Virus record (IMG/VR): IMGVR_UViG_3300037483_000361 | Coordinates: 32,881 to 96,880 of that record | DNA from: a virus | Strand: one strand, 5' to 3' | Length of the DNA stretch: 64,000 bases | Part shown: one piece after another, positions 28,617 through 57,522 of the stretch | How positions within the stretch are numbered: position 1 is the stretch's first letter | Layout: every line of letters begins with the position of its first letter | Made by a program: the position numbers and the translations under genes | The notes under the pieces: generated by a model | The model's database searches: none | Told to the model about the DNA's origin: nothing | Seen by the model: the letters and a program-made list of their open reading frames with translations, nothing else

Positions 28617-28963
28617 TGGAGCTGGCGGCATCGAAGCCGCGTCCAGCAAAAAATACAACCTTGACTTCTCCGTGCGCAGTCACCTGTAAAGGTTTCACGC
28701 TTGTAGAACAAATGACAAATCTACTTTGCGTTATCCATCATCTGCAACAATATGACCGATGGCATGTCACACCGTTAGTCGGTTGTGCTGTCGTCCTAGC
28801 CTTGCTCCACGACTATCAGCTCAGTAGGACGGCTGCTAACGATTAAGCAGCGAGCTTAAGTGGTTCTGCACTTATCAGTTTGACACAGAGATTACGAGAG
28901 GTAGTGTCATCTCTCGGCACGCTTCTCTCAGTTTACTTTAGCTGTCGAATCCAGTTCAGCCCC
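28617..28963 (-). ncRNA. ssrA: tmRNA, tag peptide (A)AEPLKLAA* at 28843..28869
   Basis: 5' GGGGCTGAACTGGATTCGAC, 3' GCGGCTTCGATGCCGCCAGCTCCA with G3:U70; ATAAGT-GCA resume context; LAA stop. Confidence 0.93.
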
Positions 28964-28969
28964 GAGATA

Positions 28970-29425
28970 CTACTCCAACTGTTTGTCTATCATCTTCCAC
29001 AGATTTTCAAACTCACCTTTCTTGTAAAGAATAGACTTAAACGTTGGGTGTTGCTTTCGATACATATTAATCTTTGCTCCTGCCGTGACGTTTGCCAACC
29101 GGTCACACAACTTCACAAACACCGCGGATTTGCTAGCCCGGATGCGTTGGAACGTTGCTTCTTTTGACTCACGATTGGAAACCAAGTCTACGATGTTTGC
29201 AATGTTGGAACCAAATTGCTGTTGAAGTTCTGCTTTGGTGACAGAAGTATCTTCAAGAACATCATGCAACCATGCGGCTGCTTGTTCATCAGTTGAGCCG
29301 CCAAATCGTCGAGCGAGCGTATAGACTTGCGCGAGATGGTACGTATAGGGCGTCCCTACGCCGTATTGTTGGCCGCCGTGTGCTTTGATGGCGAACTTGG
29401 CTGCCTCTTTAATCACATCGTTCAT
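28970..29425 (-). CDS. small alarmone (ppGpp) hydrolase-like HD protein
   Basis: AHGGQ..PY..HL, AAWLHDVLEDT, VKLCDRLAN. Confidence 0.8.
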   Translation of the reverse strand: MNDVIKEAAKFAIKAHGGQQYGVGTPYTYHLAQVYTLARRFGGSTDEQAAAWLHDVLEDTSVTKAELQQQFGSNIANIVDLVSNRESKEATFQRIRASKSAVFVKLCDRLANVTAGAKINMYRKQHPTFKSILYKKGEFENLWKMIDKQLE

Positions 29426-29427
29426 AG

Positions 29428-29501
29428 AGCTACCTCGGGGAGTTGAACCCCGGACCTCATCTTTACCAAAGATGCGCTCTGACCACCTGAGCTAAGGCAG
29501 C
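29428..29501 (-). tRNA. tRNA-Thr(GGT)
   Basis: cloverleaf, loop TTGGTAA. Confidence 0.9.
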
Positions 29502-29502
29502 G

Positions 29503-29578
29503 TAGCGGGGCAAGGAGTTGAACCTTGTACACCATTCACCTTATGAGGGTGATGAGCCGCCGTTGCTCGATCCCCGCG
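29503..29578 (-). tRNA. tRNA-Met(CAT), initiator-like C1:U72 mismatch
   Basis: loop CTCATAA. Confidence 0.8.
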
Positions 29579-29596
29579 GCAATTAACCTGTATATA

Positions 29597-29670
29597 TGGC
29601 AGGGGTGGGATTTGAACCCACGACCTCCGCATTATGAGCGCGGCGAGCTACCGGCCTGCTCCACCCTGCG
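29597..29670 (-). tRNA. tRNA-Met(CAT), initiator-like C1:C72 mismatch
   Basis: loop CTCATAA. Confidence 0.88.
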
Positions 29671-29675
29671 TCGAA

Positions 29676-29870
29676 TTAAATTCTATCGAACATTTTACTC
29701 ATATCGTCAAACATCCGGTTCATATGATCGAACAACTTGTCCATTTGCTGTTCAATCACTCTTTGTTTTTCTGGCGGGAGCTTAACATCATTTGCTGATC
29801 CCATCTTCTTATCGGGTGAATCCGAAATGGTCACGGTGACAGTTTTGAACATAGATGATGGACTCCTCAC
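29676..29870 (-). CDS. hypothetical protein
   Basis: short ORF, start uncertain. Confidence 0.45.
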   Translation of the reverse strand: MRSPSSMFKTVTVTISDSPDKKMGSANDVKLPPEKQRVIEQQMDKLFDHMNRMFDDMSKMFDRI

Positions 29871-29896
29871 TGCCGCTAATGTCTGGTTAAGATTGA

Positions 29897-30187
29897 TTAG
29901 TTACTTTGACTAACTTTTTCGGGGTGCAAACTAACAGGGCAACACGGTTCAATACAAACGGATGCTGCTGCTTCGTCATGATATGTGGTAGTCTGCCCAT
30001 TCCCCTTTACATCTTTGACGGTCGTCCTTAAGCGGCGACCGTCAGTTGTTGGACGAGTAATTTCTATAGTTGCTGTCTCTGATCCTACATTATATCCCAT
30101 TGCTACGCGGACAGCAACATCCCCTACATTTACGATGATTTGATCACCATCATCGAGATCGAATACATTTACCTTTCTTGTTTTCAT
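29897..30187 (-). CDS. hypothetical protein
   Basis: GGAG SD. Confidence 0.55.
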   Translation of the reverse strand: MKTRKVNVFDLDDGDQIIVNVGDVAVRVAMGYNVGSETATIEITRPTTDGRRLRTTVKDVKGNGQTTTYHDEAAASVCIEPCCPVSLHPEKVSQSN

Positions 30188-30229
30188 ACTTTCTCCCTAC
30201 GACATGCATGTCGCAGCGGAGTCCATCAG

Positions 30230-30313
30230 AGGAAGCAGTGGGACTCGAACCCACAAGACCTTGCGGTCATACTTGCTTTCGAGGCAAGCTCCTAATCCAG
30301 CCGGGTTACTTCC
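30230..30313 (-). tRNA. tRNA-Ser(CGA)
   Basis: long variable arm, loop CTCGAAA. Confidence 0.88.
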
Positions 30314-30965
30314 GTTCAATTGCTAATCCGTTTCTTCTGACTCCTTTGCGTGACCAATGTTCATCATCTTCTTCAAGCACCTTGATGAATCCAGGCTTCA
30401 CGATCTTCCCGCGAAAGTATCCATGCTTTGCGTACCGCTTGACCACAACACCCTCGGCGAGAGCGCCATAAGCGGACTTGACCGGAACGATACTGTGAAG
30501 CTCATCCGCGGTGAACGCTCCACGGGCGACGAGCGGAACCATATGAAAGCCGTGCTCCTGGCAAAACTCTGCTCGTTCGTTGTAATTCAACCATGATCCA
30601 TTATCCCGGATGTCAAATACGAGAAAGTACTCGGGAAGGCGGTCATAGACGATGTGATGAACGGCATATAGCAATTCACCATAAATCAAATATCCCCCCG
30701 GGACACTCATGATGCGGTCATAGGCGACTGTGTTTGCCCAATTGTAGAAGTAGTCAAACTGCTCGTGGACAGATGGGCCAACTAACGAGTTTCGCTTTTG
30801 GAGTGAGAATCCCTTAGAGTGACGAATGATGCCAGTATTGGAACCATCCATCTTCTCTTCGACAACCACTTCGCCGGCCAACAGTCGCTTGAACGTTGTG
30901 TTGTCCAAGTTGTATTTGCTGGTCACTGGAAAGACGTGATATGTCTTTTCATATTTTACGAACAT
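30306..30965 (-). CDS. ATP-dependent RNA ligase (Rnl2-like nucleotidyltransferase domain)
   Basis: EEKMDGSN (KxDG), YGEL, FLVFDI, EGVVVK, GKIV. Confidence 0.85.
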   Translation of the reverse strand: MFVKYEKTYHVFPVTSKYNLDNTTFKRLLAGEVVVEEKMDGSNTGIIRHSKGFSLQKRNSLVGPSVHEQFDYFYNWANTVAYDRIMSVPGGYLIYGELLYAVHHIVYDRLPEYFLVFDIRDNGSWLNYNERAEFCQEHGFHMVPLVARGAFTADELHSIVPVKSAYGALAEGVVVKRYAKHGYFRGKIVKPGFIKVLEEDDEHWSRKGVRRNGLAIERK

Positions 30966-31012
30966 GGCTTGAGCCTTTCAAGATAACCTCTAATGAACGC
31001 TAACTGCCAAGA

Positions 31013-31097
31013 CGGAAGCGGAGGGACTCGAACCCCCAACGGTGATTAGCCGTTACCAGTTTTCAAGACTGGGCCCTCATCCAGCCGGATCACTTCC
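31013..31097 (-). tRNA. tRNA-Ser(TGA)
   Basis: long variable arm, loop CTTGAAA. Confidence 0.9.
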
Positions 31098-31266
31098 AGT
31101 CCGATATTTTTGAATCGCGTCGGTATACGACGAGTTTCACGTCGAGCGCGATATTCCCCCGCTACCATCACAAATTTAGCGTGCTGTGCTGCACGGCTGG
31201 CGTGGTAAAATTTTCCACTTCCCCGGCACCAATCACTCTGACTTTATCCAGCGGAGTGATACGCTG

Positions 31267-31353
31267 TTATTTCTTGTGGCGGCGCTTCCATTGAGCTCTA
31301 CGCTTTGCGGAGCCCTTCTTGCGGCGGCCGCGATGCTTTTTTGGGTAAGGCAT
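31267..31353 (-). CDS. 28-aa highly basic peptide MPYPKKHRGRRKKGSAKRRAQWKRRHKK
   Basis: GAGGA SD, ATG..TAA. Confidence 0.6.
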   Translation of the reverse strand: MPYPKKHRGRRKKGSAKRRAQWKRRHKK

Positions 31354-31372
31354 GTCAGTTCCTCAGTTATAA

Positions 31373-31455
31373 CGGAAGTGACAGGACTCGAACCTGCAAG
31401 GGCTTTCGCCCGTGCCTCATTTCCAGTGAGGTTCCTCACCACTCGGATCACTTCC
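31373..31455 (-). tRNA. tRNA-Ser(GGA)
   Basis: long variable arm, loop CTGGAAA. Confidence 0.9.
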
Positions 31456-31532
31456 ATAACCACAGCGTTGTCTTGCGGAAGCGTATCCGCCCACCAATCG
31501 TGATGGGACTAAACGCTCGCTGCGGTCACTTC

Positions 31533-31982
31533 CTAAATATGAATCAGCGTCACACCAGCTTCACGGTACAACGATTCTGCCAACTGCATGTCATCCATCC
31601 AACGAGCCATGAATGAGTTTGCCGGATCAAACACAGGCGATACAACCGTTGAAATGCCCGCTTGGATGACATGAACAGCACATCGTGAACAACTTTGCCC
31701 CGGCCAATTGTAGAGCGTGTAACCGTCTAGACGTTCTCGTGCATTCAAGATTGCGTTCATTTCACTATGAATGACTCGCTTATACTTCTCATCCCGGTTA
31801 TTGAGAAACTCGGGTGTGTCCGCAATCTTGCGTGGGAATCCATTGAATCCCACCGATGCTATCGTTTTGTCAGGACGGACAATCACCCCACCAGTTTTCG
31901 TTGAGGGGTCCTTTGAAGCAGTAGCTACATGTGCTGCTAATTGTAAATACCACACATGCCACCAATTTGGATCACGATGCAT
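31533..31982 (-). CDS. dCMP deaminase
   Basis: SKDPSTK, GFNGFP, HSEMNA, CSRC. Confidence 0.9.
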   Translation of the reverse strand: MHRDPNWWHVWYLQLAAHVATASKDPSTKTGGVIVRPDKTIASVGFNGFPRKIADTPEFLNNRDEKYKRVIHSEMNAILNARERLDGYTLYNWPGQSCSRCAVHVIQAGISTVVSPVFDPANSFMARWMDDMQLAESLYREAGVTLIHI

Positions 31983-32391
31983 GTTTTAACTCCTGCAATC
32001 TATTTGCTAACCACTTTCTCTGTTCAATAATGTCTAGTGGTATTCCAGCTTTACCACTGTTAGTCTTTGATTTAGTTTGCTGAATTGCAATTATCAATAA
32101 TGCTTGCTCCGCTTTCTCTTTTAGAAATGGAGCCAAAATTTGACAAACCTTTGCTGCTTCATTATCAGCCACCGACCATCTATACAACTGCTTATGATGT
32201 TTTTGTCGTCGTTTTTCACAAGCAAATTGACCACCAAATATTTTATGGAGCCACTCTATAGTAGGCCGATGTGAATTAGTGCAAGTAACAGCTGCTTTAC
32301 AATAACGATCTTTGGATGAATAAAAGCATCCTTCACCATCCAAAAACCCTGCCGCATATGCTAGTATAGCTTCATCCAACTTATCTGTCAT
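31972..32391 (-). CDS. free-standing LAGLIDADG homing endonuclease
   Basis: YAAGFLDGEGC; lower GC than flanks. Confidence 0.85.
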   Translation of the reverse strand: MTDKLDEAILAYAAGFLDGEGCFYSSKDRYCKAAVTCTNSHRPTIEWLHKIFGGQFACEKRRQKHHKQLYRWSVADNEAAKVCQILAPFLKEKAEQALLIIAIQQTKSKTNSGKAGIPLDIIEQRKWLANRLQELKHAS

Positions 32392-32412
32392 AACCTTTCC
32401 TATGATGATTGA

Positions 32413-32488
32413 TGATCGCTACTGGATTCGGACCAGTGGCCTCTTGCGTGTCGAGCAAGCGCTCTGAACCAGGCTGAGCTAAGCGATC
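32413..32488 (-). tRNA. tRNA-Val(GAC)
   Basis: loop TCGACAC (C33). Confidence 0.85.
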
Positions 32489-32812
32489 TTATAGTTCGTG
32501 ATTCCAAAGAATTTTTGCGTCTCCATAGGCACGCTCGAGTCCTGCGATCCGTTCACGGCGTTCGGACTGTTCCTGTTCTGAAATTCTCATATCTCCCATC
32601 TCATCTAAGTCTCTGCGTACTTCTGCAACAAACTCAGGATCGGGGCCGCGCTGGCGATAATATTGAACGGTGCCTTCAATGCGGTTGAGAAGATCGGTCC
32701 AATATTCGCCGGCCGATTCCCATCTGCGTCGAATCAAAAACGCGTTCGTCCATTGATACAATCGAATGCCAAGCAAGGTGCCAAAAACACCAATAAATAA
32801 CCCTAGAAACAT
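32489..32812 (-). CDS. membrane-anchored hypothetical protein
   Basis: GGAGG SD, N-terminal TM. Confidence 0.6.
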   Translation of the reverse strand: MFLGLFIGVFGTLLGIRLYQWTNAFLIRRRWESAGEYWTDLLNRIEGTVQYYRQRGPDPEFVAEVRRDLDEMGDMRISEQEQSERRERIAGLERAYGDAKILWNHEL

Positions 32813-32827
32813 ATAACCTCCGTTGAG

Positions 32828-33178
32828 TGGCGACCGCATAGCCGGAATTTTGTTTTAAGCCATCATCTGTCTCACGAATAAACCGTGGTCATTTCTGACT
32901 GCCGCTACCCGACTTCACAGGGCGAAAGGATGGGCCCTCAGTCTGTTTGCGTTGCATTCTCACTCGTAGTGCGAACGAAGTTGGATGTCTCTGGCCACGC
33001 TGTATTCCAAGCGTAGAAACATTCTAAGGGTCGTCCACCAGAGCTTGCCGACGCCAATAGTCCACCCAACTTCTCCTACGTCCCTTCACGAATGTCCCGA
33101 GCTTCCTCAATAACATAAACTAGGATTTCGATTCCGACTCAACGGACTAGTCTTGTTACTGCGATGGCCGGGTCACCA
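32828..33178 (-). ncRNA. rnpB: RNase P RNA (divergent)
   Basis: P1 TGGTGACC/GGTCGCCA; GAGGAAGCTCGG (CR I); AGACAGATGATGG (CR IV); ACAAAATTCCGGCTA (CR V). Confidence 0.8.
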
Positions 33179-33179
33179 G

Positions 33180-33254
33180 TCCGTTCGGGAGGATTTGAAC
33201 CTCCACATGCTGCTGTATCAGAGCAGTGCCTTCACCGGGTTTGGCTACGAACGG
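33180..33254 (-). tRNA. tRNA-Ile(GAT)
   Basis: loop CTGATAC. Confidence 0.85.
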
Positions 33255-33259
33255 ATAAA

Positions 33260-33529
33260 CTACGACTTCTTCTTTCTACTCTTTTCTCGGCGGCCGCGAT
33301 TCTTCGACTCTGCTTCAAAGCCGCTAATCTTGCCGCCTTTATGCGACGCATCTTTGCCGTCGCCATTACCATAGGTTCCCCTTTTGCGATTATACTGATT
33401 GAGTTCTGCTCGGTATTTCTTCATCTTCTTTGATGACTGAAATTTCCGATACTCGTCTTTGTAATCGCGATCTTCGAGAAGTTTGCTGACTTCTTCTTGA
33501 ATGATTTCTCTCAATTCACTTAGCTTCAT
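33260..33529 (-). CDS. small basic HNH-like protein with IIQEE..LLE leader
   Basis: RDYKDEY..GDGKDASH..NRGR. Confidence 0.6.
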   Translation of the reverse strand: MKLSELREIIQEEVSKLLEDRDYKDEYRKFQSSKKMKKYRAELNQYNRKRGTYGNGDGKDASHKGGKISGFEAESKNRGRREKSRKKKS

Positions 33530-33530
33530 A

Positions 33531-33616
33531 CGGAAGGTAAGAGATTCGAACTCTTACACCCTTTCGGATGCATCGTTTAGCAAACGAGCCCGGCACACCA
33601 TCTCCGGCGACCTTCC
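33531..33616 (-). tRNA. tRNA-Ser(GCT)
   Basis: long variable arm, loop TTGCTAA. Confidence 0.85.
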
Positions 33617-33618
33617 AA

Positions 33619-33812
33619 GCAGTAGAGCGGACTTTTGTCAGGCCAATATATGAGCGAGCAATTGCCAACTGTGAGTAGACGCTCGTTTATTACCTTCTCA
33701 ACTCAGGCGAGCGGTCGCTTCACAATCGGGCATTTGCACCAACTTTTACTGGCGTCCGTTGAGGGGACCGTGGCGATTGGAGCTTCTATTTCAGCCCTTT
33801 TCACTCTACTAC
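33619..33812 (-). ncRNA. ~194-nt long imperfect hairpin RNA (6S-like size and shape)
   Basis: GTAGTAGAGTG/CGCTCTACTGC closing stem plus nested helices. Confidence 0.45.
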
Positions 33813-33814
33813 AG

Positions 33815-33888
33815 TATCCCCGGAGGGATTCGAACCCCCAACCCCGAGCTTCGTAGGCTCGTGCTCTATCCAGTTGAGCTACGGAGAT
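33815..33888 (-). tRNA. tRNA-Arg(ACG)
   Basis: loop CTACGAA. Confidence 0.9.
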
Positions 33889-33889
33889 A

Positions 33890-34835
33890 TGAAGGGCTGA
33901 GACTACACCCTTTTCCAGTGCCACCTTTGTCAGATTATCCTACAGTGTCCCCACCATAGGTTCCCGACGTATCCACCCCTCCACGAGAGGTCTGACACCA
34001 AGACTGCTTTTGTTAAAGCGGTAGCGATTCCGCTGTCGCGACAGGCGCGCTCGACGTTTCGAATTCCGTCAGTCTTGCGGACTGTAAATGGGCGCTAACC
34101 CAAACGTGCATTTTCACATCAACGGTGCATCTCTCTTGGGGAGAGATTCCCGCCTCTGTTGTCCCGAAGGACCAGAGGATTAAGCCTCTTTTCCTCCCGT
34201 CACCGAGTCGGTCTTTCCATTTTTGGTGCTTAGCGTAGGAGTTGAACCTACAACCATTAGTTTAGCATACTAGTGCTCTACCATTGAGCTAGATAAGCGA
34301 CTTACCCGTGAAGTGCCGACTCTGTAGTTGCCAATCTCTTTTGGAGATCAGAATGCCACACTTCACTGCTGACTTTCGTTGTCACTACTCATCCAGACTT
34401 CAAGAGACATAGGCCAATTAACTCCGCTTGCTAGTGGTCCAGCGAGGACCGGCGGAATTGACCCTTCCCTATGATCATACTATCGAGCCCTTGTGATACC
34501 ACACTCGGACCAAACAATAACACTCCTTGCTAATCTACCGTCGCGTAGGGGTATATAGGGAGTCCAGCACCACCTGTCAATCTTCTCCTACGGCCGTTCC
34601 CGTTACCCTTAAGGGCCATTCACGGCGGTTACATAGAAGTTTTTCCCCTAACTACGCTTCCGGCCTATCTCCAACACTCGCGTGCTGAAGCTGTGGCCTC
34701 GCGGCCACAAAGGCGGAGCTTGCTTGGATGAACCGACCGGAATCGGCGCGGGTTGGTAAGCCTCACCGCTTTACACGTCTTGCGACGTGCTGTTCTTTTC
34801 CCCGAAGGGACGGGGCGCCAAACCGCCCCGTAAAC
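33890..34835 (-). ncRNA. giant ornate ncRNA, GOLLD-like, with embedded tRNA
   Basis: ~945 nt without a credible ORF; many GNRA/UUCG hairpins on minus strand; own promoter. Confidence 0.6.
34224..34298 (-). tRNA. atypical tRNA (GCT anticodon, short variable loop, encoded CCA) inside large ncRNA
   Basis: canonical D/T arms, loop ATGCTAA, stem mismatches. Confidence 0.6.
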
Positions 34836-34838
34836 CTG

Positions 34839-34886: not shown

Positions 34887-34896
34887 GTGCCTATAA

Positions 34897-51532: not shown

Positions 51533-51560
51533 ATACCCTCTTTTGCTGAAAATAACTGCT

Positions 51561-52179: not shown

Positions 52180-52182
52180 AAA

Positions 52183-52254
52183 AGCGGCCCTCACGGAGTT
52201 AAACCGAATCTTCTTTACTGGATAGTAAAGTGTGCATCGCTACACCAGAGCCGC
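52183..52254 (-). pseudogene. tRNA-Gly-like with 8-nt anticodon loop
   Basis: GCGGCTC acceptor, U73, loop CTATCCAG, weak T stem. Confidence 0.5.
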
Positions 52255-52257
52255 GAG

Positions 52258-52493
52258 TGACGGTAGGTTGAATCGTCGTTCAACTATGCTGACCTTTCGC
52301 GACATCGCCTCCACGGCGAGGCTATACCTTCCCAATCCCGAATGTCCAGAGTCGTAGTCGCTCGGGGCTCGTTGCCTCTCAGACAACTACCGGTCGGTCC
52401 CGGCTGTCAGTCTTGACCCCACCACGCTTTGCGCCGTTCTCGAATACTTTGCGTGGCTACCTTTCAGTGTGTCCATCCACACCGCTACCGTCA
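52258..52493 (-). ncRNA. 236-nt tRNA-shell RNA
   Basis: TGACGGTAG/CTACCGTCA termini flanked by D-like and T-like hairpins. Confidence 0.55.
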
Positions 52494-52497
52494 ATTA

Positions 52498-52689
52498 CTA
52501 TGCTTCGATAAACGTGCGAGTGACCTGCACCTTACCGACACTCACCAACTCGTAAACTGCACAGTCTTCCGTCACCTCGACTTCCGGCATCTCGACATCG
52601 GTTAAAAAGTAAACCTCTTCGTCGTCGTCGATACCAGTGTCCCGGCGTACATACAGTTGTTTTGGAAACTTCACTTTCTTTGCACCCAT
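52498..52689 (-). CDS. hypothetical protein
   Basis: AGGAGG SD. Confidence 0.6.
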   Translation of the reverse strand: MGAKKVKFPKQLYVRRDTGIDDDEEVYFLTDVEMPEVEVTEDCAVYELVSVGKVQVTRTFIEA

Positions 52690-52721
52690 TGTGCCTCCTA
52701 ATAGAATTGATAAAATTGGGC

Positions 52722-52863
52722 TGGTGGTAGGCCGGATTCCCCACTCCGGCACCTCTCCATCTAGCAGCGGCTTCCCTTTAGTTGGCACCTTCAGGTCGCC
52801 TTTTGTGCTGCCTCTAGCCTAAACGCTAAAGCCTTACCCACTTGTGCCACAGTGCTACCACCA
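52722..52863 (-). ncRNA. 142-nt tRNA-shell RNA
   Basis: TGGTGGTAG/CTACCACCA termini, same layout as 52258..52493. Confidence 0.5.
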
Positions 52864-52875
52864 ATTTCCCACCAT

Positions 52876-53039
52876 TTCCCGTCTGACCATTAAGATCAGT
52901 TCCGGTGATGACTCGCGCCAACACCAATACACCACGCAGAGGTACTGTACCGCTCGCTCTCTGCCGTTCGCCGATACAGGCGGTACCGATCAGCTTTTAC
53001 GTTGTGGTCCAGCTACACTATGTTGTAGCGACACGGGAA
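52876..53039 (-). ncRNA. 164-nt tRNA-shell RNA
   Basis: TTCCCGT/ACGGGAA termini with flanking hairpins. Confidence 0.45.
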
Positions 53040-53044
53040 TAAAG

Positions 53045-53313
53045 TTTGTCTGTAGTGAAGAAGAAAATAATTCGACGGATCAACAATCACCTGACAATCA
53101 TCACAGTATCACAGGCTAGTTTCACACCCACATACCATCAATTATCATATGCCGAAGCATTCGTAAATATTGGGGTGGGTTTATCAACCAGCGATCCGTG
53201 TACAATATGGTTTCAAGTCATATCGAAATAATTGTCGCCTACCTTCTACTTGTCGGTAGCCCGTGCCACTCGAACGAGGAGAGTGGTCGGTACTGCCTAT
53301 CACTACAGACGAA
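53045..53313 (-). ncRNA. ~270-nt stem-closed RNA
   Basis: GTCTGTAGTGA/TCACTACAGAC termini. Confidence 0.45.
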
Positions 53314-53316
53314 TGT

Positions 53317-53931
53317 TTAGATTACGTCTGCTGCTACGAGGGCTGCGGCGAGACTACTTGGTAGTTCACGCGTGACCGACGTGTTGATGCGTTCGAGCCG
53401 ATCCTGTAGTTGGTCGATCCTCTTTCGAAGGACACGTTGCTCCAGCTCGAGCGCTTTGATCTGCTCGTCGGTGAGCGCCGACACTGTGAGGTCTGCTGAG
53501 GCGACGTTCACCCGACCGTAGATGTCGTGTGGTGCTGTTGCAGTGCGAGCAGCCATGATGCGTGCGTCGAGCTGCTCCTGCGTCAGCCGTTCAGATGCCA
53601 ATGCGACATCCGTAGCAGCCTTCAGTTGTTCATACTGCGCCTCAAGCGACCGCTGTTCGGTGACCAGTGCGTTGACGCCAGCCGTTTCGTTCACCGAACC
53701 AAGCAGTGTACGAACCGTTCCGCGAACCGTGGTTAGCGTACGAATCTTATCGATGAGTTCGAGCGCTTCTTGACGGTTTACGGTCAAACGGTTTGTAGAC
53801 ACGTCCACAGGATCATGAACGTTAATCGCGATGTACATCTTCGTGCGAAGTTGCTGACGCACCTCTTTGACTTGCGCGTCGAGCTTGCGCACAACTTTGG
53901 CGAGCGTGCGGAGAGATAGTTCAGTAGACAT
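53317..53931 (-). CDS. coiled-coil hypothetical protein
   Basis: GAGGA SD, helical. Confidence 0.65.
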   Translation of the reverse strand: MSTELSLRTLAKVVRKLDAQVKEVRQQLRTKMYIAINVHDPVDVSTNRLTVNRQEALELIDKIRTLTTVRGTVRTLLGSVNETAGVNALVTEQRSLEAQYEQLKAATDVALASERLTQEQLDARIMAARTATAPHDIYGRVNVASADLTVSALTDEQIKALELEQRVLRKRIDQLQDRLERINTSVTRELPSSLAAALVAADVI

Positions 53932-53971
53932 GGTTTCCTCGTTCTGTTGTGGGATATAGACTTTGGTACAG

Positions 53972-54044
53972 AGCCATCGGCGGGACTCGAACCCGCGTAT
54001 ACTGAGGTACAAGCTCAGCTCCGTTGCCGCTGGGACACGATGGC
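53972..54044 (-). tRNA. tRNA-Thr(TGT)
   Basis: loop CTTGTAC. Confidence 0.88.
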
Positions 54045-54467
54045 CTAATATGATTTACCTGCTTTATATCGTTGGCGCCGTGCATGCCTACCATTTCCTG
54101 CATTCAGTTTTTTATATGTTGGTGTCAAGGAGTGACAGTTGGGACAGATCAATTCAAGGTTGTCCAAATTTTTGTTTTCAGAATGTCCATCACGATGATT
54201 CAACTCAATAGGAACCTTCTCAGTAATTGGATTTCTTTCTGCCCACTTACACTTCATGCACTTCTCTCCGTTCTTACGGATAAGATAGGATTTCAGTATC
54301 CTGTCGTCGAACAAAAACGGATTCCCTTCTACATTCACATCAACCTGAGAAGAGTTACATTTGGATTGACATCCTCTAGAGTGACCACCCAAACTAGCAA
54401 CGGTTTGAAATATTTCTAAACAGTACTTACAGTGATACATGTTTCTTATTGACGACCTACTGTCCAT
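54045..54467 (-). CDS. HNH homing endonuclease
   Basis: CMKC, IELNHRDG..N...NLELICPNCHS. Confidence 0.85.
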   Translation of the reverse strand: MDSRSSIRNMYHCKYCLEIFQTVASLGGHSRGCQSKCNSSQVDVNVEGNPFLFDDRILKSYLIRKNGEKCMKCKWAERNPITEKVPIELNHRDGHSENKNLDNLELICPNCHSLTPTYKKLNAGNGRHARRQRYKAGKSY

Positions 54468-54709
54468 TCATCCCGGAAGCCTTCATCCGTCTTATGGACA
54501 AAGTTAAACGTTTCGCCGGTGTTGACGGACTTCGCGGTGATCTCCACATATGCGAAATCGAATCGTTCTGCAAGCTGTTCAGCGCCGCGCTTGATCAAAC
54601 CGGGAATGTTTTCACGAAACTCTCGAATCTGCTCCATGCCCTTCGGGTATTCGTCTCCATTCACCTTAAACACCTTAAACGTCATGTTCCAAATATCTTG
54701 CTTTGCCAT
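54446..54709 (-). CDS. hypothetical protein
   Basis: GGAG SD. Confidence 0.55.
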   Translation of the reverse strand: MAKQDIWNMTFKVFKVNGDEYPKGMEQIREFRENIPGLIKRGAEQLAERFDFAYVEITAKSVNTGETFNFVHKTDEGFRDEWTVGRQ

Positions 54710-54729
54710 ATAGACTCCAATTAGAAAAC

Positions 54730-54966
54730 CTATTGCCTAGGACGATTACCGTCCCATGCATTAATTGTTTCAAGTGGGCGATACCACTCTGCTGGATCGG
54801 GAAGTTCATCTTTCCCGTTCGGGCCTTCAGGTTCGTGGCCCGTAAATGCTATGTTCCAGGCTTGACGCAGCTCTTGCCACTCAGGATGATCGTCACAATA
54901 CTTGCATTCGCCTGGAGCGTGAAGAACTCGTGGATCACAATGCGGAAATTGTTGTATTACATTCAC
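54730..54966 (-). CDS. hypothetical protein
   Basis: FPHCD.RVLHAPGEC.YCD. Confidence 0.6.
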   Translation of the reverse strand: MNVIQQFPHCDPRVLHAPGECKYCDDHPEWQELRQAWNIAFTGHEPEGPNGKDELPDPAEWYRPLETINAWDGNRPRQ

Positions 54967-54985
54967 ACGTACAACCTTTGAAAAA

Positions 54986-55060
54986 TACCCCCGGTGGGAT
55001 TCGAACCCACACTGAAATGATCTTAAGTCATTTGCCTCCTGCCAGTTGGGCTACGAGGGC
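54986..55060 (-). tRNA. tRNA-Leu(TAA), short variable loop
   Basis: loop CTTAAGA. Confidence 0.88.
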
Positions 55061-55065
55061 ATATA

Positions 55066-55198
55066 AGCCGAGTGGATTCGCCTTTGTTCTCCACTATCAG
55101 TCACCGTCCGCTGAGGCTGGTACAAGCTCCACGAAGTCTTGGTTTGTTAACCAACCGCCGGATTCGTGATCGTGCGACGGACTGCCGTTTTGTCGGCC
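55066..55198 (-). ncRNA. unnamed stem-closed RNA
   Basis: GGCCGA/TCGGCT termini, nested helices. Confidence 0.35.
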
Positions 55199-55207
55199 CA
55201 CATGAAG

Positions 55208-55288
55208 TGTCACAGGAGGGATTCGAACCCTCATATCCGAAGATACTAGTTCTTGAGACTAGCGCGTAAGCCGTTCCGCCACTGTGAC
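55208..55288 (-). tRNA. tRNA-Leu(CAA), long variable arm
   Basis: loop CTCAAGA. Confidence 0.9.
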
Positions 55289-55291
55289 CAG

Positions 55292-55669
55292 ATTGAGGGG
55301 AGTGTTACAGAAAGTTGTCCGATTCAAGGTCGGCAAAGGCTATAAGGATTCGTGATAACATCGGAGTCAGAGGGACTAACTCATTCTCCTTGAGTAAGGT
55401 GCCGGTAGCACACCCACCAAATTATCACTCTATCGCTGTCAATCCTACGTATGTCAAGTAAAAGTAGTCAACTCTACTCAACAGGAACGTTCGCCACTCA
55501 CTATTGGCCAAGGATCATCATCCTCGGACTGTACCACGCTAACTGCATACACAGATACAACCAGTTTTGTCTTGTTAGCTCCGTGGTTATGCTCACCACG
55601 TCCTGCCCTACGAATGCTACCTTCAAGTACTACTTCATTATATCAACTAATACATTAACTAATCTCAAT
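55292..55669 (-). ncRNA. ~380-nt ornate pseudoknotted RNA (ROOL-like candidate)
   Basis: long-range pairs AAGTAGT/ACTACTT, GGTAGCA/TGCTACC, GTGATAA/TTATCAC, AGGATT/AATCCT. Confidence 0.5.
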
Positions 55670-55756
55670 TGTAATATTGGCGTCGTTTATCCTCCCGCTA
55701 CAGAGCAAGCATTTGTGAGCTGCCAAAACTCAACTGCGGTACCCGATTCCCCCCAA

Positions 55757-55769
55757 TTTTCAAAGAACA
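55757..55769 (-). promoter_or_regulatory. boxA-like element
   Basis: TGTTCTTTGAAAA. Confidence 0.5.
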
Positions 55770-55843
55770 TACCCGCTGAGGGATTCGAACCCCCGGTCTT
55801 CTGGATGTAAACCAGACATGTTTGACCACTACACCAAGCGGGC
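55770..55843 (-). tRNA. tRNA-Val(TAC)
   Basis: loop TTTACAT. Confidence 0.9.
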
Positions 55844-55848
55844 GTACA

Positions 55849-55953
55849 GTGATGTTGGCAGTGGAGCGCTGAGTTTCTCTGGACTCATCCACATTTGCGG
55901 CTCGGTCGTCACTACCAGAGAGTGTCAACCTACTAGGCTTAACTCAACATCAC
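55849..55953 (-). ncRNA. unnamed stem-closed RNA
   Basis: GTGATGTTG/CAACATCAC termini. Confidence 0.4.
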
Positions 55954-55959
55954 ATGCGC

Positions 55960-56133
55960 TTACTTCTCTTCGAAGGACTTGATCCATGTGAGAAGCCAAT
56001 GCGATGCTTCTTCGTGGGAACATTCCATGTCTCGTTCAAGATAGGGAACGGCGCCCCACATATTCGTGACGCCGCTTTTTCTCAAGGATTCGAGATACCT
56101 GAACACATCGTCTTGATTGAGTTTCAATTTCAT
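55960..56133 (-). CDS. conserved small phage protein
   Basis: YLESLRKSGVTNMWGA.PYL. Confidence 0.65.
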   Translation of the reverse strand: MKLKLNQDDVFRYLESLRKSGVTNMWGAVPYLERDMECSHEEASHWLLTWIKSFEEK

Positions 56134-56147
56134 GGCGAGCTCCCAAG

Positions 56148-56220
56148 TCTCCCCGGCGAGATTCGAACTCACAAATCAAGGATAGAAGCCTTGCAGTTTG
56201 TCCAGTTAGCCTACGGAGAG
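56148..56220 (-). tRNA. tRNA-Arg(TCT)
   Basis: loop CTTCTAT. Confidence 0.88.
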
Positions 56221-56448
56221 AGAAATTACCACTCTACTTCTTTCCAAAACATCCAAAAACAAATCATGGTCCACAAACCCATCTCCCAATGGCCAGTTAG
56301 AAAAAATCCAACCATAAGAACTGCATTGGGCGGGCCGGGCACCGTAAAGTCAAAAGCTCTCCGATATTTATTCATGTTTGAGGCGGTTCTAAGACGCGCC
56401 CGGCGAAGATAATTTGCGAGTAGCCCTGACTAGAAAGTGCCCAACCCA

Positions 56449-56622
56449 TTACATCTTCTCGAAGGTGTCGAAATTGAGTTCGTCCAGTTCATCCACTTCC
56501 AATGTGTGAATGACCCTTCGAATTGTAGATCGTGTTGGACGACTCTTCTTCACAGTCTTATCGGCCTGTTGCTCATCCCGTTCTTTGCGGGGGAGCGGCC
56601 GATCCTTCAATGTCTTGCTCAT
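56449..56622 (-). CDS. 57-aa hypothetical protein
   Basis: AAGGG SD, first ORF after promoter. Confidence 0.5.
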   Translation of the reverse strand: MSKTLKDRPLPRKERDEQQADKTVKKSRPTRSTIRRVIHTLEVDELDELNFDTFEKM

Positions 56623-56672
56623 ACCCTTCTCTACGTTGAGATTGCGGTTGCCTGCGCCGGCCTCACACTATA

Positions 56673-56701
56673 AGTATACTACTTTGTTGAGAAGTTGTCA
56701 A
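56673..56701 (-). promoter_or_regulatory. sigma70-type promoter at head of RNA island
   Basis: TTGACA-17-TATACT. Confidence 0.8.
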
Positions 56702-56751
56702 GCGGTATTTTGCTCGTCTAACTTCATACATGACACAATAGTAGAAAGTGT

Positions 56752-57522
56752 TTATATATCTACCAGTGCGGCGCGGAGCAAGTGCAGCATGATCCCTTCT
56801 GCTTTTTGAGTATTCGGTTCCGCAGGAAGTGGTGATCGTTCCTTGGCCGATTCCATACGAGCTCGGAGACGTTCTGCCTCGGCCTTGACCTGCTCAAGCG
56901 TCCACTTGCCCTGCTTGACGGCGAGCAACTCGTCTGCGTCAGGTCTGAGCACGGCCATCACACCGGTCTCCACGAACTCCGTACCCATGCGATACAGGCG
57001 GAGTAGGTGAGACGCGTTCTTCGTGTCGTACCCGAACTGCGTGACGAGCTTGCGGCGCTTCTCGCCCATGTACCCACTGGTCACGTTGAGCGTCATGCGT
57101 CGCAACTGGTCGTAGGCGTAACCCGAGAACGAATGGTACGCCCGAAGAGACGAAAAAATATCACGGTTGTTCTTAAGTTGCGTAAACGCAGGCGTCGTCA
57201 GCTCTGGATCATAATCCTCATCCCGATACCACAACGTTTCCAGTACGCTAGGGTTGTTTTTGAGGAGTAGCCCAACATACTTGCGAAGTGAGTAGACCAC
57301 TACGTCTACGGCGTCATCCTGAAACGTCCAGTTATCGAACGTGCTCAGTCCGAGCAACTTCTCAATCGGCGGAATGACCACGACAAAAAAGTCATCATCG
57401 CTGACGCTCGTGGCCGTTCCATACACCCGCGACCCGCGCCGGCAGGCCATGATGGCCGAACGCTCAAGGTCAAACCCCAACCGGTCATTAAACATAGCAA
57501 TAACATGATTTGGAAATTTCAT
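56752..57522 (-). CDS. Pol-beta-superfamily nucleotidyltransferase (RlaP/YcgL-like)
   Basis: RGSRVYGT...SDDD, LLKNNPSVLE, YDTKNASHLLRL. Confidence 0.8.
   Translation of the reverse strand: MKFPNHVIAMFNDRLGFDLERSAIMACRRGSRVYGTATSVSDDDFFVVVIPPIEKLLGLSTFDNWTFQDDAVDVVVYSLRKYVGLLLKNNPSVLETLWYRDEDYDPELTTPAFTQLKNNRDIFSSLRAYHSFSGYAYDQLRRMTLNVTSGYMGEKRRKLVTQFGYDTKNASHLLRLYRMGTEFVETGVMAVLRPDADELLAVKQGKWTLEQVKAEAERLRARMESAKERSPLPAEPNTQKAEGIMLHLLRAALVDI

What the first reader, a model, noticed from the sequence alone, without database searches (positions are those of the whole stretch)
28617..57522. Self-contained translation-rescue and RNA-repair island
One co-oriented 29-kb region carries about 53 tRNAs for all 20 amino acids (no Pro-GGG, Gly-CCC or Arg-CCG seen), tmRNA and RNase P RNA. 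It also encodes a GGQ hydrolase, Pth2, ppGpp hydrolase, RNA ligase, two HAD phosphatases, a DEDDh exonuclease and a nucleotidyltransferase. Individual parts are known from large phages. Together they would cover tRNA supply, 5' and 3' maturation, end healing and sealing, ribosome rescue and stringent-response suppression (inference).
Basis: partly seen in the sequence, partly recalled or inferred. Interest (0 to 1): 0.7.

Follow-up and report, generated by a model that had tools for sequence, protein, structure and literature searches.

The report
Phage tRNA island with repair genes
An uncultured tailed phage packs 53 tRNA genes, a ribosome-rescue RNA, a giant GOLLD RNA, a shrunken RNase P-like ribozyme gene and a set of tRNA-repair and ribosome-rescue enzymes into one same-strand 29-kb block, a very rich example of a known kind of phage island that still depends on host factors.

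Summary
ARAGORN finds 51 tRNAs and a tmRNA, all on the minus strand. Rfam adds two weak tRNAs (Ser-CGA, a Glu-UUC-like one), giving 53 for all 20 amino acids; Pro-GGG, Gly-CCC and Arg-CCG are absent, as reported. Every named enzyme domain is confirmed.

The "RNase P RNA" (32828-33178) matches no Rfam RNase P model. It does belong to a small covarying RNA family with the RNase P catalytic-core layout (P1-P5, P4 with bulged U). A bridging phage RNA matches both this family's model and RF00010. I read it as a minimal RNase P-like RNA; activity is untested.

A GOLLD RNA with an embedded tRNA lies next to it.

"Self-contained" is not supported. The 97-kb record holds no polynucleotide kinase, CCA-adding enzyme, SmpB or RnpA. 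The nucleotidyltransferase is RlaP, and the HD protein is a small alarmone hydrolase.

Relatives carry compact tRNA-GOLLD-tmRNA islands without most of these enzymes, so the block grew by accretion, with five homing-type endonuclease genes inside it.

Five sigma-70-like promoters and 1-48-nt gene-tRNA gaps argue for tRNA-punctuated co-transcription.

This scan noted phage islands with their own RNase P RNA before, on other DNA.

The parts
28616..28963 (-). tmRNA, tag peptide AEPLKLAA
   Evidence: ARAGORN; Rfam RF00023, 116.8 bits against a gathering score of 47
28970..29425 (-). Small alarmone hydrolase-like HD protein (151 aa, LHD..ED motif)
   Evidence: Pfam HD_4, 54.3 bits. PDB matches to (p)ppApp hydrolase, Mesh1 and SAH. 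Starts 1 nt after tRNA-Thr and ends 6 nt before the tmRNA.
29427..56220 (-). Array of 51 ARAGORN tRNAs plus 2 Rfam-only tRNA-like genes (30231-30313 Ser-CGA; 45873-45947 Glu-UUC-like), interleaved with about 45 ORFs
   Evidence: All 20 amino acids are covered. No encoded CCA except in the GOLLD-embedded tRNA.
30306..30965 (-). ATP-dependent RNA ligase, nucleotidyltransferase domain only (219 aa, KMDGSN motif I)
   Evidence: Pfam RNA_ligase PF09414, 110.5 bits. Weak PDB matches to Pab1020 and T4 Rnl2. A 52% homologue lies in the G006 tRNA island.
31533..31982 (-). dCMP/cytidine deaminase (HSEMNA, SCSRC motifs), probably nucleotide metabolism
   Evidence: Pfam dCMP_cyt_deam_1; NCBIfam ComEB/dCTP-deaminase type. 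Homologues lie outside the island in G003 and in L208.
31972..32391 (-). LAGLIDADG-type homing endonuclease (weak match), absent at this site in L208
   Evidence: Pfam PF00961, E 6e-4; L208 synteny
32828..33178 (-). Minimal RNase P-like RNA: P1 33178-33171 with 32835-32828; CR-I-like GAGGAAGCUCGGGAC at 33108-33094; CR-V-like CAAAAUUCCGGCUA at 32852-32839
   Evidence: No Rfam hit. Five-member family with covarying P1-P5. Model R1 scores this RNA at 56 bits and the G028 RNA at 84 bits; the G028 RNA also scores 61 bits on RF00010.
33894..34886 (-). GOLLD RNA with its own TTGACA-N17-TAGATT promoter (34886-34858) and an embedded tRNA (34224-34298, GCU anticodon, no long arm, encoded CCA)
   Evidence: Rfam RF02032, 159.4 bits over 33894-34366. 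Promoter. 72% identical to L208 across this stretch.
34897..35445 (-). DEDDh 3'-5' exonuclease (RNase_T family), conserved just upstream of GOLLD in L208
   Evidence: Pfam PF00929, 48.5 bits; KapD-like, below cut-off; 64% homologue in L208
35962..36357 (-). Mini release factor: GGQ domain plus an IRTYHEPDNRVKDH motif, with no codon-reading domain (131 aa)
   Evidence: Pfam RF-1, 93.5 bits. Best PDB match is RF1 domain 3; PrfH and C12orf65 are weaker. At least 493 homologues of about 130 aa.
39031..39537 (-). HNH homing endonuclease (others at 40186-40560 and 54045-54467; an HNH/resolvase-like endonuclease at 45923-46570)
   Evidence: PHROG phrog_2255/3106/14736/1271
44939..45390 (-). Second HAD phosphatase (DVDGT motif I). 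The start is uncertain because the long ORF runs over tRNA-Glu.
   Evidence: Weak Pfam HAD hits, including HAD_PNKP. phrog_505 matches its phosphatase part only. Motif.
47801..48190 (-). Peptidyl-tRNA hydrolase Pth2
   Evidence: Pfam PTH2, 60.5 bits; NCBIfam Pth2 59 bits, below the equivalog cut-off
48433..48906 (-). HAD phosphatase of the 'Swiss army knife' RNA-repair type
   Evidence: Pfam HAD_SAK_2, 70.2 bits; DVDGV motif
56752..57570 (-). RlaP (RNA-ligase-associated Pol-beta) nucleotidyltransferase. It lies upstream of the island's first internal promoter.
   Evidence: Pfam PF10127, 70.1 bits; phrog_388, E 1.6e-49
56673..56701 (-). Sigma-70-like promoter. Others lie at 50019-50047, 44628-44656, 41130-41158 and 34858-34886.
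   Evidence: TTGACA-N17-TANNNT: 10 matches in the window, all on the minus strand, against 0.57 expected
26890..27585 (-). Calcineurin-like metallophosphoesterase just beyond the tmRNA end of the island, a possible 2',3'-cyclic/3'-phosphate healing enzyme (inference)
   Evidence: Pfam Metallophos, 40 bits

Best explanation
This is an expanded phage tRNA and non-coding-RNA island, grown by accretion.

A backbone shared with relatives (tRNAs, GOLLD RNA, tmRNA, a DEDDh exonuclease and, in the closest relative, the RNase P-like RNA) has taken up extra tRNAs and genes that act on damaged tRNAs and stalled ribosomes. Several homing-endonuclease genes in the block suggest how it grew (inferred).

Host RNA polymerase would start at five or more sigma-70-like promoters and make long same-strand transcripts. 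In these, tRNAs punctuate the mRNAs and are cut out (inferred from spacing).

Proposed jobs of the products, all inferred from family membership:
- 53 tRNAs give a full decoding set that does not depend on host tRNAs a defence system may cut or block.
- The ligase, RlaP, two HAD phosphatases and possibly the metallophosphoesterase mend cleaved tRNA ends.
- The small alarmone hydrolase removes alarmones or toxSAS pyrophosphate from tRNA CCA ends.
- The codon-independent mini release factor, Pth2 and the tmRNA free ribosomes and tRNAs trapped by such damage.
- The minimal RNase P-like RNA, probably with host RnpA, adds 5'-processing capacity for the pre-tRNA load.

The island is not autonomous. 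It needs host aminoacyl-tRNA synthetases, CCA-adding enzyme, SmpB, RnpA and, for ATP-dependent sealing of 5'-OH ends, a kinase not found here.
For: Parts.

Strand and promoters: all RNA genes and annotated ORFs are on the minus strand. Ten of ten strong promoters are on the minus strand against 0.57 expected, and five lie directly upstream of tRNAs or GOLLD. Enzyme genes sit 1-48 nt from tRNAs (coordinates).

Accretion:
- TerL relatives G003 and G004 have 25 tRNAs and GOLLD within about 6-7 kb, with a tmRNA alongside in G003.
- Complete G003 has no homologue of the ligase, RlaP, HAD-SAK, Pth2, GGQ, HD_4 or RNase_T genes.
- L208 shares tRNA order, GOLLD (72% identity), RNase_T, the RNase P-like RNA and the deaminase in 5.7 kb. 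It lacks the GGQ, HNH and LAGLIDADG genes.

Recurrence elsewhere:
- Of 80 viral loci with a mini-RF gene, 35 hold at least 5 tRNAs within 10 kb and 10 hold a tmRNA.
- G006 lacks a detectable TerL homologue. Within about 7 kb of a 32-tRNA, tmRNA island it combines an RF00010-positive RNase P RNA (103.5 bits), a 52% ligase homologue and a 56% GGQ homologue.

Published function of the families: RNA ligase, HAD-SAK and RlaP as phage RNA-repair sets (PMC7824862); release-factor domains coupled to RNA repair (PMC6514570); a phage SAH that reverses toxSAS tRNA pyrophosphorylation (bioRxiv 10.1101/2024.07.05.602228); GOLLD in phage tRNA islands, sometimes carrying tRNAs (PMC12286853).

RNase P-like RNA:
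- The P4 inner pairs covary: CGGG/UCCG, CCGG/CCGG, CGCG/CGCG, CAGG/CCUG.
- On three sequences, 21 of 53 pairs show compensatory changes against 0-2 in slid controls. On five sequences, 26 of 45 pairs do.
- The order P1, P2, P3, GAGGAAG....AAUGA, P2', ACAGAA..GGCUA, P1' equals that of the RF00010 consensus.
- The bridging G028 RNA scores on both models.
Against: There are no expression or biochemical data, and the phage is uncultured.

Only about a dozen of roughly 45 island ORFs have any annotation, and five of those are homing-type endonucleases. The functional theme may therefore partly reflect what can be annotated.

The repair pathway is incomplete: no 5'-kinase and no 2',3'-cyclic phosphodiesterase were identified. 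The record is about 54% complete, so they could lie elsewhere.

The DEDDh exonuclease could act on DNA.

The ligase's 26-32% homologues in huge phages mostly lie away from tRNAs, and Bxz1-type mycobacteriophages keep their RF-1 gene among replication genes. Linkage to tRNAs is therefore frequent but not obligatory.

The RNase P-like RNA fails every Rfam RNase P model. It has no recognisable specificity domain or L15 CCA-binding loop, and its single-sequence fold is not better than shuffles (z = -0.77).
Confidence: 0.68

Rival explanations
1. Codon supply plus an insertion hotspot. The tRNAs only match phage codon usage. The enzymes are unrelated passengers that accumulate because homing endonucleases and tolerated intergenic sites make the tRNA region a dumping ground. 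There is no functional link between the enzymes and the tRNAs.
For: The enzyme genes other than the RNase_T and deaminase are absent from relatives with the same backbone. Five homing-type endonuclease genes lie in the block. About 30 ORFs have no recognisable function. A dCMP deaminase with no tRNA role also sits in the island.
Against: The annotated passengers are strongly biased towards tRNA, ribosome and RNA-end chemistry. The same pairings recur in phage lineages that share no detectable, or only 31-33% identical, TerL: G006 has the ligase, GGQ gene, RNase P RNA and tmRNA; L122-L125 have HD_4, GGQ and 16-21 tRNAs. Of the 80 mini-RF loci, 35 lie in arrays of at least 5 tRNAs.
Confidence: 0.2
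2. One reading: a self-contained system that by itself covers tRNA supply, 5' and 3' maturation, end healing and sealing, ribosome rescue and suppression of the stringent response.
For: All named parts exist. An RNase P-like RNA is present. The genes are co-oriented and tightly packed.
Against: The 97-kb record has no kinase, CCA-adding enzyme, SmpB or RnpA. The nucleotidyltransferase is RlaP. The DEDDh substrate is unknown. The set is not conserved as a unit.
Confidence: 0.1
3. The RNase P-like RNA is not an enzyme. It is a decoy that binds host RnpA or pre-tRNA, or a decaying relic of a captured rnpB gene.
For: It matches no Rfam RNase P family. The specificity domain and L15 are not recognisable. 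Sizes of 233-351 nt are well below the 377 nt of E. coli rnpB. Only five members of the family were found in the viral and metagenome pattern scans.
Against: Helices P1-P5 are kept by compensatory changes across phages whose TerL is only 31-33% identical, or not detected in the held fragment, so it is not a relic. The catalytic-core signatures are retained: GAGGAA, the bulged U in P4, and ACAGAA. A decoy would not obviously need these.
Confidence: 0.3

Closest known systems
Jumbo-phage tRNA sets with RNA-repair systems (ATP-dependent RNA ligases, HAD 'Swiss army knife' phosphatase, RlaP), described by Iyer et al. 2021 (PMC7824862) after Burroughs and Aravind 2016
   Same: The same three repair families occur together with many tRNAs, and the proposed role is to counter tRNA-cleaving effectors.
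   Different: Here the repair genes are interleaved with the tRNAs in one co-oriented block. The block also holds a tmRNA, GOLLD, an RNase P-like RNA, a mini-RF, Pth2 and an SAH. No polynucleotide kinase accompanies the ligase. The estimated genome size is about 180 kb (CheckV 54% of 97 kb), below the usual jumbo range.
GOLLD-bearing tRNA arrays of phages and mycobacteria (Rfam RF02032; Kretsch et al. 2025, PMC12286853; Morgado et al. 2020, cited there)
   Same: GOLLD lies inside a tRNA island and carries a tRNA in its linker.
   Different: The score is close to the gathering cut-off (159 against 150), whereas G003 and G004 score about 295. The embedded tRNA is the only one with an encoded CCA, and it has a Ser anticodon without the Ser long arm.
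Bacterial class A RNase P RNA (rnpB, RF00010). By recollection only, the S-domain-poor type T RNA of Pyrobaculum.
   Same: P1-P2-P3-P4-P5 order; P4 with 3 bp, a bulged U and 4 bp; GAGGAA before the P4 5' strand; AAUGA, then P2 3', then ACAGAA before the P4 3' strand.
   Different: There is no Rfam score. The RNA is 233-351 nt. P7-P14 and P15-P18 are not recognisable. The record has no RnpA. tRNA-rich phages encode it; for the two members whose flanks were examined in detail (this window and L208) it lies inside the tRNA array.
prfH-rtcB (release factor H with RNA ligase) and ArfB/ICT1/C12orf65 GGQ rescue factors (PMC6514570)
   Same: A GGQ hydrolase without full stop-codon reading is linked to an RNA ligase and to RNA damage.
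   Different: At 131 aa it is shorter than PrfH and lacks PrfH's domain 2/4. It lacks the ArfB-type basic tail and keeps an RF1-like IRTY..NRV motif. The partner ligase is ATP-dependent (PF09414), not RtcB.
Phage small alarmone hydrolases, such as PaSpo of Salmonella phage SSU5
   Same: A small HD_4 protein with the HD..ED motif is encoded by a phage. PaSpo reverses toxSAS pyrophosphorylation of tRNA CCA ends.
   Different: Identity to characterised SAHs is low (PDB matches at E 1e-9 to 1e-7). Its place between a tRNA and the tmRNA is specific to this island.
Phage T4 tRNA cluster with the SegB homing endonuclease, and Pnkp/Rnl1 repair of PrrC damage (PMC2330249, PMC13096335; the T4 repair pathway is from established knowledge)
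   Same: Homing endonuclease genes sit inside a tRNA gene cluster, and tRNA repair serves as counter-defence.
   Different: T4 has 8 tRNAs and its repair genes lie elsewhere. T4 has the kinase that is missing here.

Membership tests
RNase P RNA, bacterial class A (RF00010) | Reaches the Rfam covariance-model score | tested here: not met
   No RNase P family matches at E<=1 over 27000-59000, at E<=10 over 32700-33300, or in the whole record. E. coli rnpB scores 318.6 bits as a positive control.
RNase P RNA, bacterial class A (RF00010) | P4 long-range helix with a bulged U, preceded by GAGGAAAGUCC-type (CR-I) and ACAGAA..GGCUUA-type (CR-V) strands | tested here: met
   GAGGAAG(C/U)UCNNGAC pairs with CA(G/A)AA..NNNNGCUA in all five members, and the inner 4 bp change compensatorily. 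P4 on A6 is 100% paired, with 2 covarying pairs. Consensus for comparison.
RNase P RNA, bacterial class A (RF00010) | P1-P2-P3 then P4 5' strand ... P2 3', P4 3', P1 3' order (P2/P4 pseudoknot topology), with P5 directly after P4 | tested here: met
   Helices 1-5 are 95-100% paired. 8 of 9 P1 pairs, 6 of 6 P3 pairs and 3 of 5 P5 pairs show changes on both sides.
RNase P RNA, bacterial class A (RF00010) | Specificity domain (P7-P14 with CR-II and CR-III) and the L15 loop that binds the tRNA CCA end | tested here: inconclusive
   P5 encloses only about 48-130 nt. Motifs resembling CR-II (AAACAGACCG) lie 3' of P5, which is not the canonical topology (read). No L15 was identified.
RNase P RNA, bacterial class A (RF00010) | Sequence-and-structure homology to accepted members through intermediates | tested here: met
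   Model R1, built from the family, scores the G028 RNA at 84 bits, E 3e-24. The same RNA scores 61 bits, E 2.5e-19, on RF00010. The window scores 56.2 bits on R1. R1 does not hit E. coli rnpB (7 bits).
RNase P RNA, bacterial class A (RF00010) | Cleaves pre-tRNA at the mature 5' end | not testable with these tools
   Needs an in vitro assay or rnpB complementation.
GOLLD RNA (RF02032) | Rfam gathering score over the conserved 3' domain | tested here: met
   159.4 bits against 150, model positions 1-416.
tmRNA (RF00023) | tRNA-like ends plus a tag reading frame | tested here: met
   116.8 bits against 47; ARAGORN tag AEPLKLAA*. The partner SmpB is absent from the record.
ArfB / ICT1 rescue factors | GGQ domain followed by a basic C-terminal tail that probes the empty mRNA channel | tested here: not met
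   GGQ is present. The NCBIfam ArfB model scores 34 bits against a cut-off of 100. The C-terminal part aligns with RF1 residues around IRTYNFPQNRV.
PrfH (release factor H) | GGQ domain plus a reduced domain 2/4, about 200 aa, paired with RtcB | tested here: not met
   69.7 bits against a cut-off of 166.65. The protein is 131 aa. Only residues 8-79 align. No RtcB was seen among the island ORFs.
Pth2 peptidyl-tRNA hydrolase (PF01981) | Pfam gathering score over the full domain | tested here: met
   60.5 bits against 23, profile positions 1-115 of 115. The NCBIfam equivalog cut-off is not reached (59 against 126).
T4-type tRNA repair (Pnkp plus Rnl) | A 5'-OH polynucleotide kinase that works with the ligase | tested here: not met
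   No ORF tested (26890-60763, covering the island) has a Walker A motif. phrog_505 matches only the phosphatase part of one HAD ORF. The record is about 54% complete.
RNA ligase (PF09414, Rnl2-like nucleotidyltransferase fold) | Pfam score and the KxDG adenylylation motif | tested here: met
   110.5 bits against 27; EEKMDGSN in the translation. The Rnl2 equivalog TIGR02307 is not reached (23.6 against 197). There is no C-terminal domain.
Small alarmone hydrolase (HD_4, RelA/SpoT hydrolase domain) | HD_4 score and the HD..ED catalytic motif | tested here: met
   54.3 bits against 27.2. LHDVLEDT aligns with LHDAVEDT of 4yf1. The substrate is untested.

The most novel reading that the evidence does not exclude
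The island encodes a working, phage-specific minimal RNase P ribozyme: a catalytic domain without a canonical specificity domain. With host RnpA it would cut the phage's CCA-less pre-tRNAs and the tRNA-punctuated mRNAs. On this reading it is one of several tRNA-island cargoes (minimal RNase P RNA, mini release factor, ATP-dependent ligase, tmRNA, GOLLD) that unrelated large phages assemble in varying combinations. That would make virus-encoded RNase P RNAs a real and so far undescribed class.
Probability: 0.4. Interest if true: 0.85.

Novelty: new variant of a known kind. Interest (0 to 1): 0.66.

Why it matters
Phage tRNAs are now understood largely as counter-measures to tRNA-targeting immunity. 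This island shows that logic taken far: a full decoding set sits physically interleaved with enzymes for three kinds of tRNA and ribosome damage (cleavage, CCA-end pyrophosphorylation, stalled peptidyl-tRNA).

It also gives a concrete, clonable candidate for a virus-encoded RNase P RNA, for which I found no published description in the library searched. The RNA is minimal (233-351 nt in this family), so it would also be useful for asking what the smallest natural bacterial-type RNase P core is.

The comparison with compact relatives gives a natural before-and-after series for how such islands grow.

Tried and rejected

2. The deaminase as TadA for tRNA-Arg-ACG. Rejected: the motifs are of dCMP-deaminase type (HSEMNA), NCBIfam hits are ComEB and dCTP deaminase, and the G003 homologue lies outside the island.

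3. The mini-RF as ArfB. Rejected.

4. The nucleotidyltransferase as a CCA-adding enzyme. Rejected: it is RlaP, and PF01743 is absent from the record.

5. A hidden kinase. None was found in a Walker A scan or with phrog_505.

6. Function for the ORFans. Pfam and PHROG gave nothing for about 25 ORFs. The ESM Atlas returned only viral hypothetical proteins for 57519-58172 and 41615-42238.

7. A protein partner of the RNase P-like RNA. The 116-aa ORF downstream (32489-32839) is acidic, with a hydrophobic N-terminus, and has no homologue next to the RNA in other phages. Three other phages do share a basic 172-213-aa ORF there, but the window lacks it.

8. Close cultured relatives. Megablast against phages hits only single tRNAs.

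9. Gene neighbourhoods of mini-RF homologues through the look-up of encoding contigs.

10. The single-sequence fold of the 351-nt RNA is not better than shuffles (z = -0.77). Single-sequence folding therefore gives no support; the case rests on covariation.

Full report
**Source.** The window is bases 32881-96880 of a 96,880-bp IMG/VR virus record. The record is linear and CheckV puts it at about 54% complete. It encodes a major head protein, a portal and a large terminase upstream of the window, and a baseplate wedge protein inside it. It is therefore a tailed phage, probably a myovirus. Megablast finds no close cultured relative.

**RNA genes.** ARAGORN finds 51 tRNAs and a tmRNA, all on the minus strand between 28616 and 56220. 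Rfam confirms the tmRNA (116.8 bits) and most of the tRNAs.
- Rfam adds two weak tRNA-like genes. One (30231-30313) has a CGA anticodon loop and a long variable arm, so I read it as Ser-CGA. The other (45873-45947) has a UUC loop.
- All 20 amino acids are covered. Pro-GGG, Gly-CCC and Arg-CCG are missing, as stated. Only CCU and CCC depend on extended wobble by Pro-UGG.
- No canonical tRNA has an encoded CCA. The only encoded CCA belongs to the tRNA inside GOLLD.

**Proteins.**
- RF-1/GGQ (35962-36357)
- PTH2 (47801-48190)
- HD_4 (28970-29425)
- RNA_ligase PF09414 (30306-30965)
- HAD_SAK_2 (48433-48906)
- a weak second HAD (44939-45390)
- RNase_T/DEDDh (34897-35445)
- RlaP (56752-57570)

Not in the finding are a dCMP-type deaminase, a LAGLIDADG gene, three HNH genes and one further endonuclease, and a metallophosphoesterase just beyond the tmRNA. 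About 30 further ORFs have no recognisable family.

**The RNase P question.** No Rfam RNase P model matches anywhere. Rfam instead finds a GOLLD RNA at 33894-34366, with a tRNA embedded in it. A lenient Rfam scan of that slice was again negative, and its single-sequence fold is unremarkable.

The region does have homologues:
- one in the tRNA-rich phage G008 (blastn);
- two more viral contigs (pattern scan);
- L208, a closer relative from a metagenome.

The five RNAs are 233-351 nt long and share a common architecture. A terminal helix P1 is followed by P2 and a P3 hairpin. Then comes GAGGAAG(C/U)UCNNGAC, with a P5 helix directly after it. A small enclosed domain and a conserved block with three hairpins follow. 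The RNA ends with AAUGA plus the P2 3' strand, ACAGAA..NNNNGCUA, and the P1 3' strand.

The two NNNN tracts pair, and they change together: CGGG/UCCG, CCGG/CCGG, CGCG/CGCG, CAGG/CCUG. This gives a P4-like helix of 3 bp, a bulged U and 4 bp.
- On the three compact members, my 53-pair structure is 99.4% paired. 21 pairs changed on both sides, against 0-2 when the partners are slid.
- On a model-fitted alignment of five distinct sequences, 26 of 45 pairs covary, against 3-7 in the slid controls. I derived the structure from these same sequences, so the slid controls overstate the contrast somewhat.

The element order equals that of the RF00010 consensus, printed for E. coli rnpB: GAGGAAAGUCCGG ... 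AGAugAAUG, P2 3', ACAGAACCCGGCUUA, P1 3'.

A chain of matches then links the family to RNase P:
- RF00010 was searched over 50 phage records. It hits G006 above the gathering score: 103.5 bits, 290 nt, flanked by tRNAs. It hits G028 at 61 bits (E 2.5e-19, 200 nt).
- My family model R1 scores that same G028 RNA at 84 bits (E 3e-24).
- R1 scores the window RNA at 56 bits and L208 at 107 bits.

I therefore accept the window RNA as a divergent, reduced homologue of RNase P RNA. The specificity domain and the L15 loop are not recognisable, and activity is unknown. I found no paper describing a phage-encoded RNase P RNA. The library lacks most subscription journals. Earlier notes of this scan report such RNAs in other phage islands.

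**Transcription.** The pattern TTGACA-N17-TANNNT occurs ten times in the window, always on the minus strand, against 0.57 expected. Five copies lie in the island, each just upstream of a tRNA or of GOLLD: 56701, 50047, 44656, 41158 and 34886. Terminator-like sites are no more frequent than in shuffles.

Enzyme genes abut tRNAs:
- HD_4 starts 1 nt after tRNA-Thr and ends 6 nt before the tmRNA.
- GGQ starts 1 nt after tRNA-Leu.
- Pth2 starts 17 nt after tRNA-Lys.
- The HAD_SAK_2 stop codon overlaps tRNA-Pro.

Co-transcription as tRNA-punctuated precursors is thus the simplest reading (inference). RlaP lies upstream of the first internal promoter.

**What is missing.** The 97 kb held contain:
- no Walker-A kinase in the ORFs tested, which cover the island; phrog_505 matches only a phosphatase part;
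- no CCA-adding enzyme;
- no SmpB;
- no RnpA.

An ATP-dependent ligase needs a 5'-phosphate, so sealing of 5'-OH ends left by anticodon nucleases is not covered here. 'Self-contained' is not supported.

**Evolution.** The terminase has 289 relatives in IMG/VR.
- G003 (195 kb, complete, 59% TerL) carries 25 tRNAs, GOLLD and a tmRNA within about 8 kb. G004 has 25 tRNAs and GOLLD next to the end of its contig, and no full tmRNA match was seen there.
- tblastn finds none of the enzymes in G003 except a deaminase homologue elsewhere in the genome.
- L208 is 72% identical to the window across GOLLD and the RNase_T gene. It keeps the same tRNA order, the RNase P-like RNA and the deaminase, with 21 tRNAs in 5.7 kb. 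It lacks the GGQ gene, the HNH and LAGLIDADG genes and several ORFans that swell the window's equivalent stretch to about 11 kb.

So the backbone is tRNAs, GOLLD, RNase_T, the RNase P-like RNA and the tmRNA. The rescue and repair genes are later additions.

**Recurrence in other phages.** The mini release factor has at least 493 homologues of about 130 aa and occurs in at least 235 viral contigs. Of the 80 best loci, 46 hold at least one tRNA within 10 kb, 35 hold at least five, and 10 hold a tmRNA. No matched control was run, so this is descriptive.

G006 has no detectable TerL homologue of this phage. Within about 7 kb of a 32-tRNA, tmRNA island it combines an RF00010-positive RNase P RNA, a 52% ligase homologue and a 56% mini-RF homologue. 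G009 and G010 combine GOLLD, a mini-RF and 33-39 tRNAs. L122-L125 combine HD_4, a mini-RF, HNH genes and 16-21 tRNAs.

The linkage is not universal. Most 26-32% ligase homologues lie away from tRNAs. Bxz1-type mycobacteriophages keep their RF-1 gene among replication genes.

**Reading of individual enzymes.**
- Mini-RF. It aligns with RF1 domain 3 and the following IRTY..NRV segment, with PrfH and C12orf65 weaker. It lacks an ArfB tail. I read it as a codon-independent peptidyl-tRNA hydrolase acting on stalled complexes, as proposed for RF domains coupled to RNA repair (PMC6514570).
- HD protein. It is a small alarmone hydrolase with the HD..ED motif. A phage SAH is known to remove toxSAS pyrophosphate from tRNA CCA ends, which fits a gene wedged between a tRNA and the tmRNA. 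The substrate is untested.
- Ligase, HAD-SAK and RlaP. Together these are a described phage RNA-repair set (PMC7824862).
- GOLLD. It occurs in phage tRNA islands, sometimes with a tRNA in its linker, and forms a 14-mer cage of unknown function (PMC12286853).

**Verdict.** The island is a very rich, accreted variant of the known phage tRNA and RNA-repair island. Its least ordinary part is the minimal RNase P-like RNA, which Rfam does not recognise.

Noticed in passing
window 36359-36432, 36633-36708, 40070-40146, 54985-55061 (minus strand): Four tRNAs with Leu anticodons (CAA, CAG, GAG, UAA) are only 74-77 nt long and lack the long variable arm of bacterial tRNA-Leu. Three other Leu tRNAs (82-83 nt) have a short version of the arm. 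Their charging identity is unclear.
   Followed up: no
window 34224-34298; L208 2119-2194: The tRNA embedded in GOLLD has a GCU (Ser) anticodon, no Ser long arm, stem mismatches, and the island's only encoded CCA. In the relative L208 the tRNA at the equivalent GOLLD position reads GAU (Ile). The embedded tRNA's anticodon is therefore not conserved.
   Followed up: partly
L205 4871-5512 (+), L204 9764-10306 (-), L206 2272-2790 (-): In three other phages a conserved basic ORF (172-213 aa, pI about 9.5, 27-38% mutual identity, no Pfam family) starts directly after the RNase P-like RNA. The window and L208 lack it. It could be a protein partner of the RNA.
   Followed up: partly
L212 1501-1790 (G006:C1:6298-6587); L213 1506-1699 (G028): Two phages with no detectable homologue of this phage's terminase carry slimmed RNase P class A matches. 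The first is 290 nt and scores 103.5 bits, above the gathering score, and is flanked by tRNAs. The second is 200 nt and scores 61 bits.
   Followed up: partly
window 2731-2759, 22081-22109, 23415-23443, 27905-27933, 62477-62505 (minus strand): Five further exact TTGACA-N17-TANNNT promoters lie outside the island, all on the minus strand. Many share AGTA just before the -10 element, which suggests one promoter class for the whole window.
   Followed up: no
window 52195-53316, 55289-55769, 56221-56672: These are ORF-poor stretches inside the island with no tRNA, no Rfam match and no blastn match in the loci held. Other first-reader notes propose tRNA-shaped RNAs in the first stretch. I did not examine them.
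   Followed up: no
window 29502-29578 and 29597-29670: Both CAU tRNAs begin with C at position 1, as initiator tRNAs do. The first scores only 36.7 bits on the tRNA model. AUA is read by a separate UAU tRNA (50847-50920). Whether an elongator tRNA-Met is present was not resolved.
   Followed up: no
window 34897-35445 with 34858-34886; L208 2823-3368: The DEDDh exonuclease gene ends 11 nt before the GOLLD promoter. This gene-GOLLD adjacency is conserved in L208 (64% protein identity), which hints at a functional link between the two.
   Followed up: partly
window 31972-32391: The LAGLIDADG-type ORF overlaps the start of the deaminase gene by 11 nt. It is absent between the equivalent genes of L208, consistent with a recent homing insertion.
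   Followed up: partly
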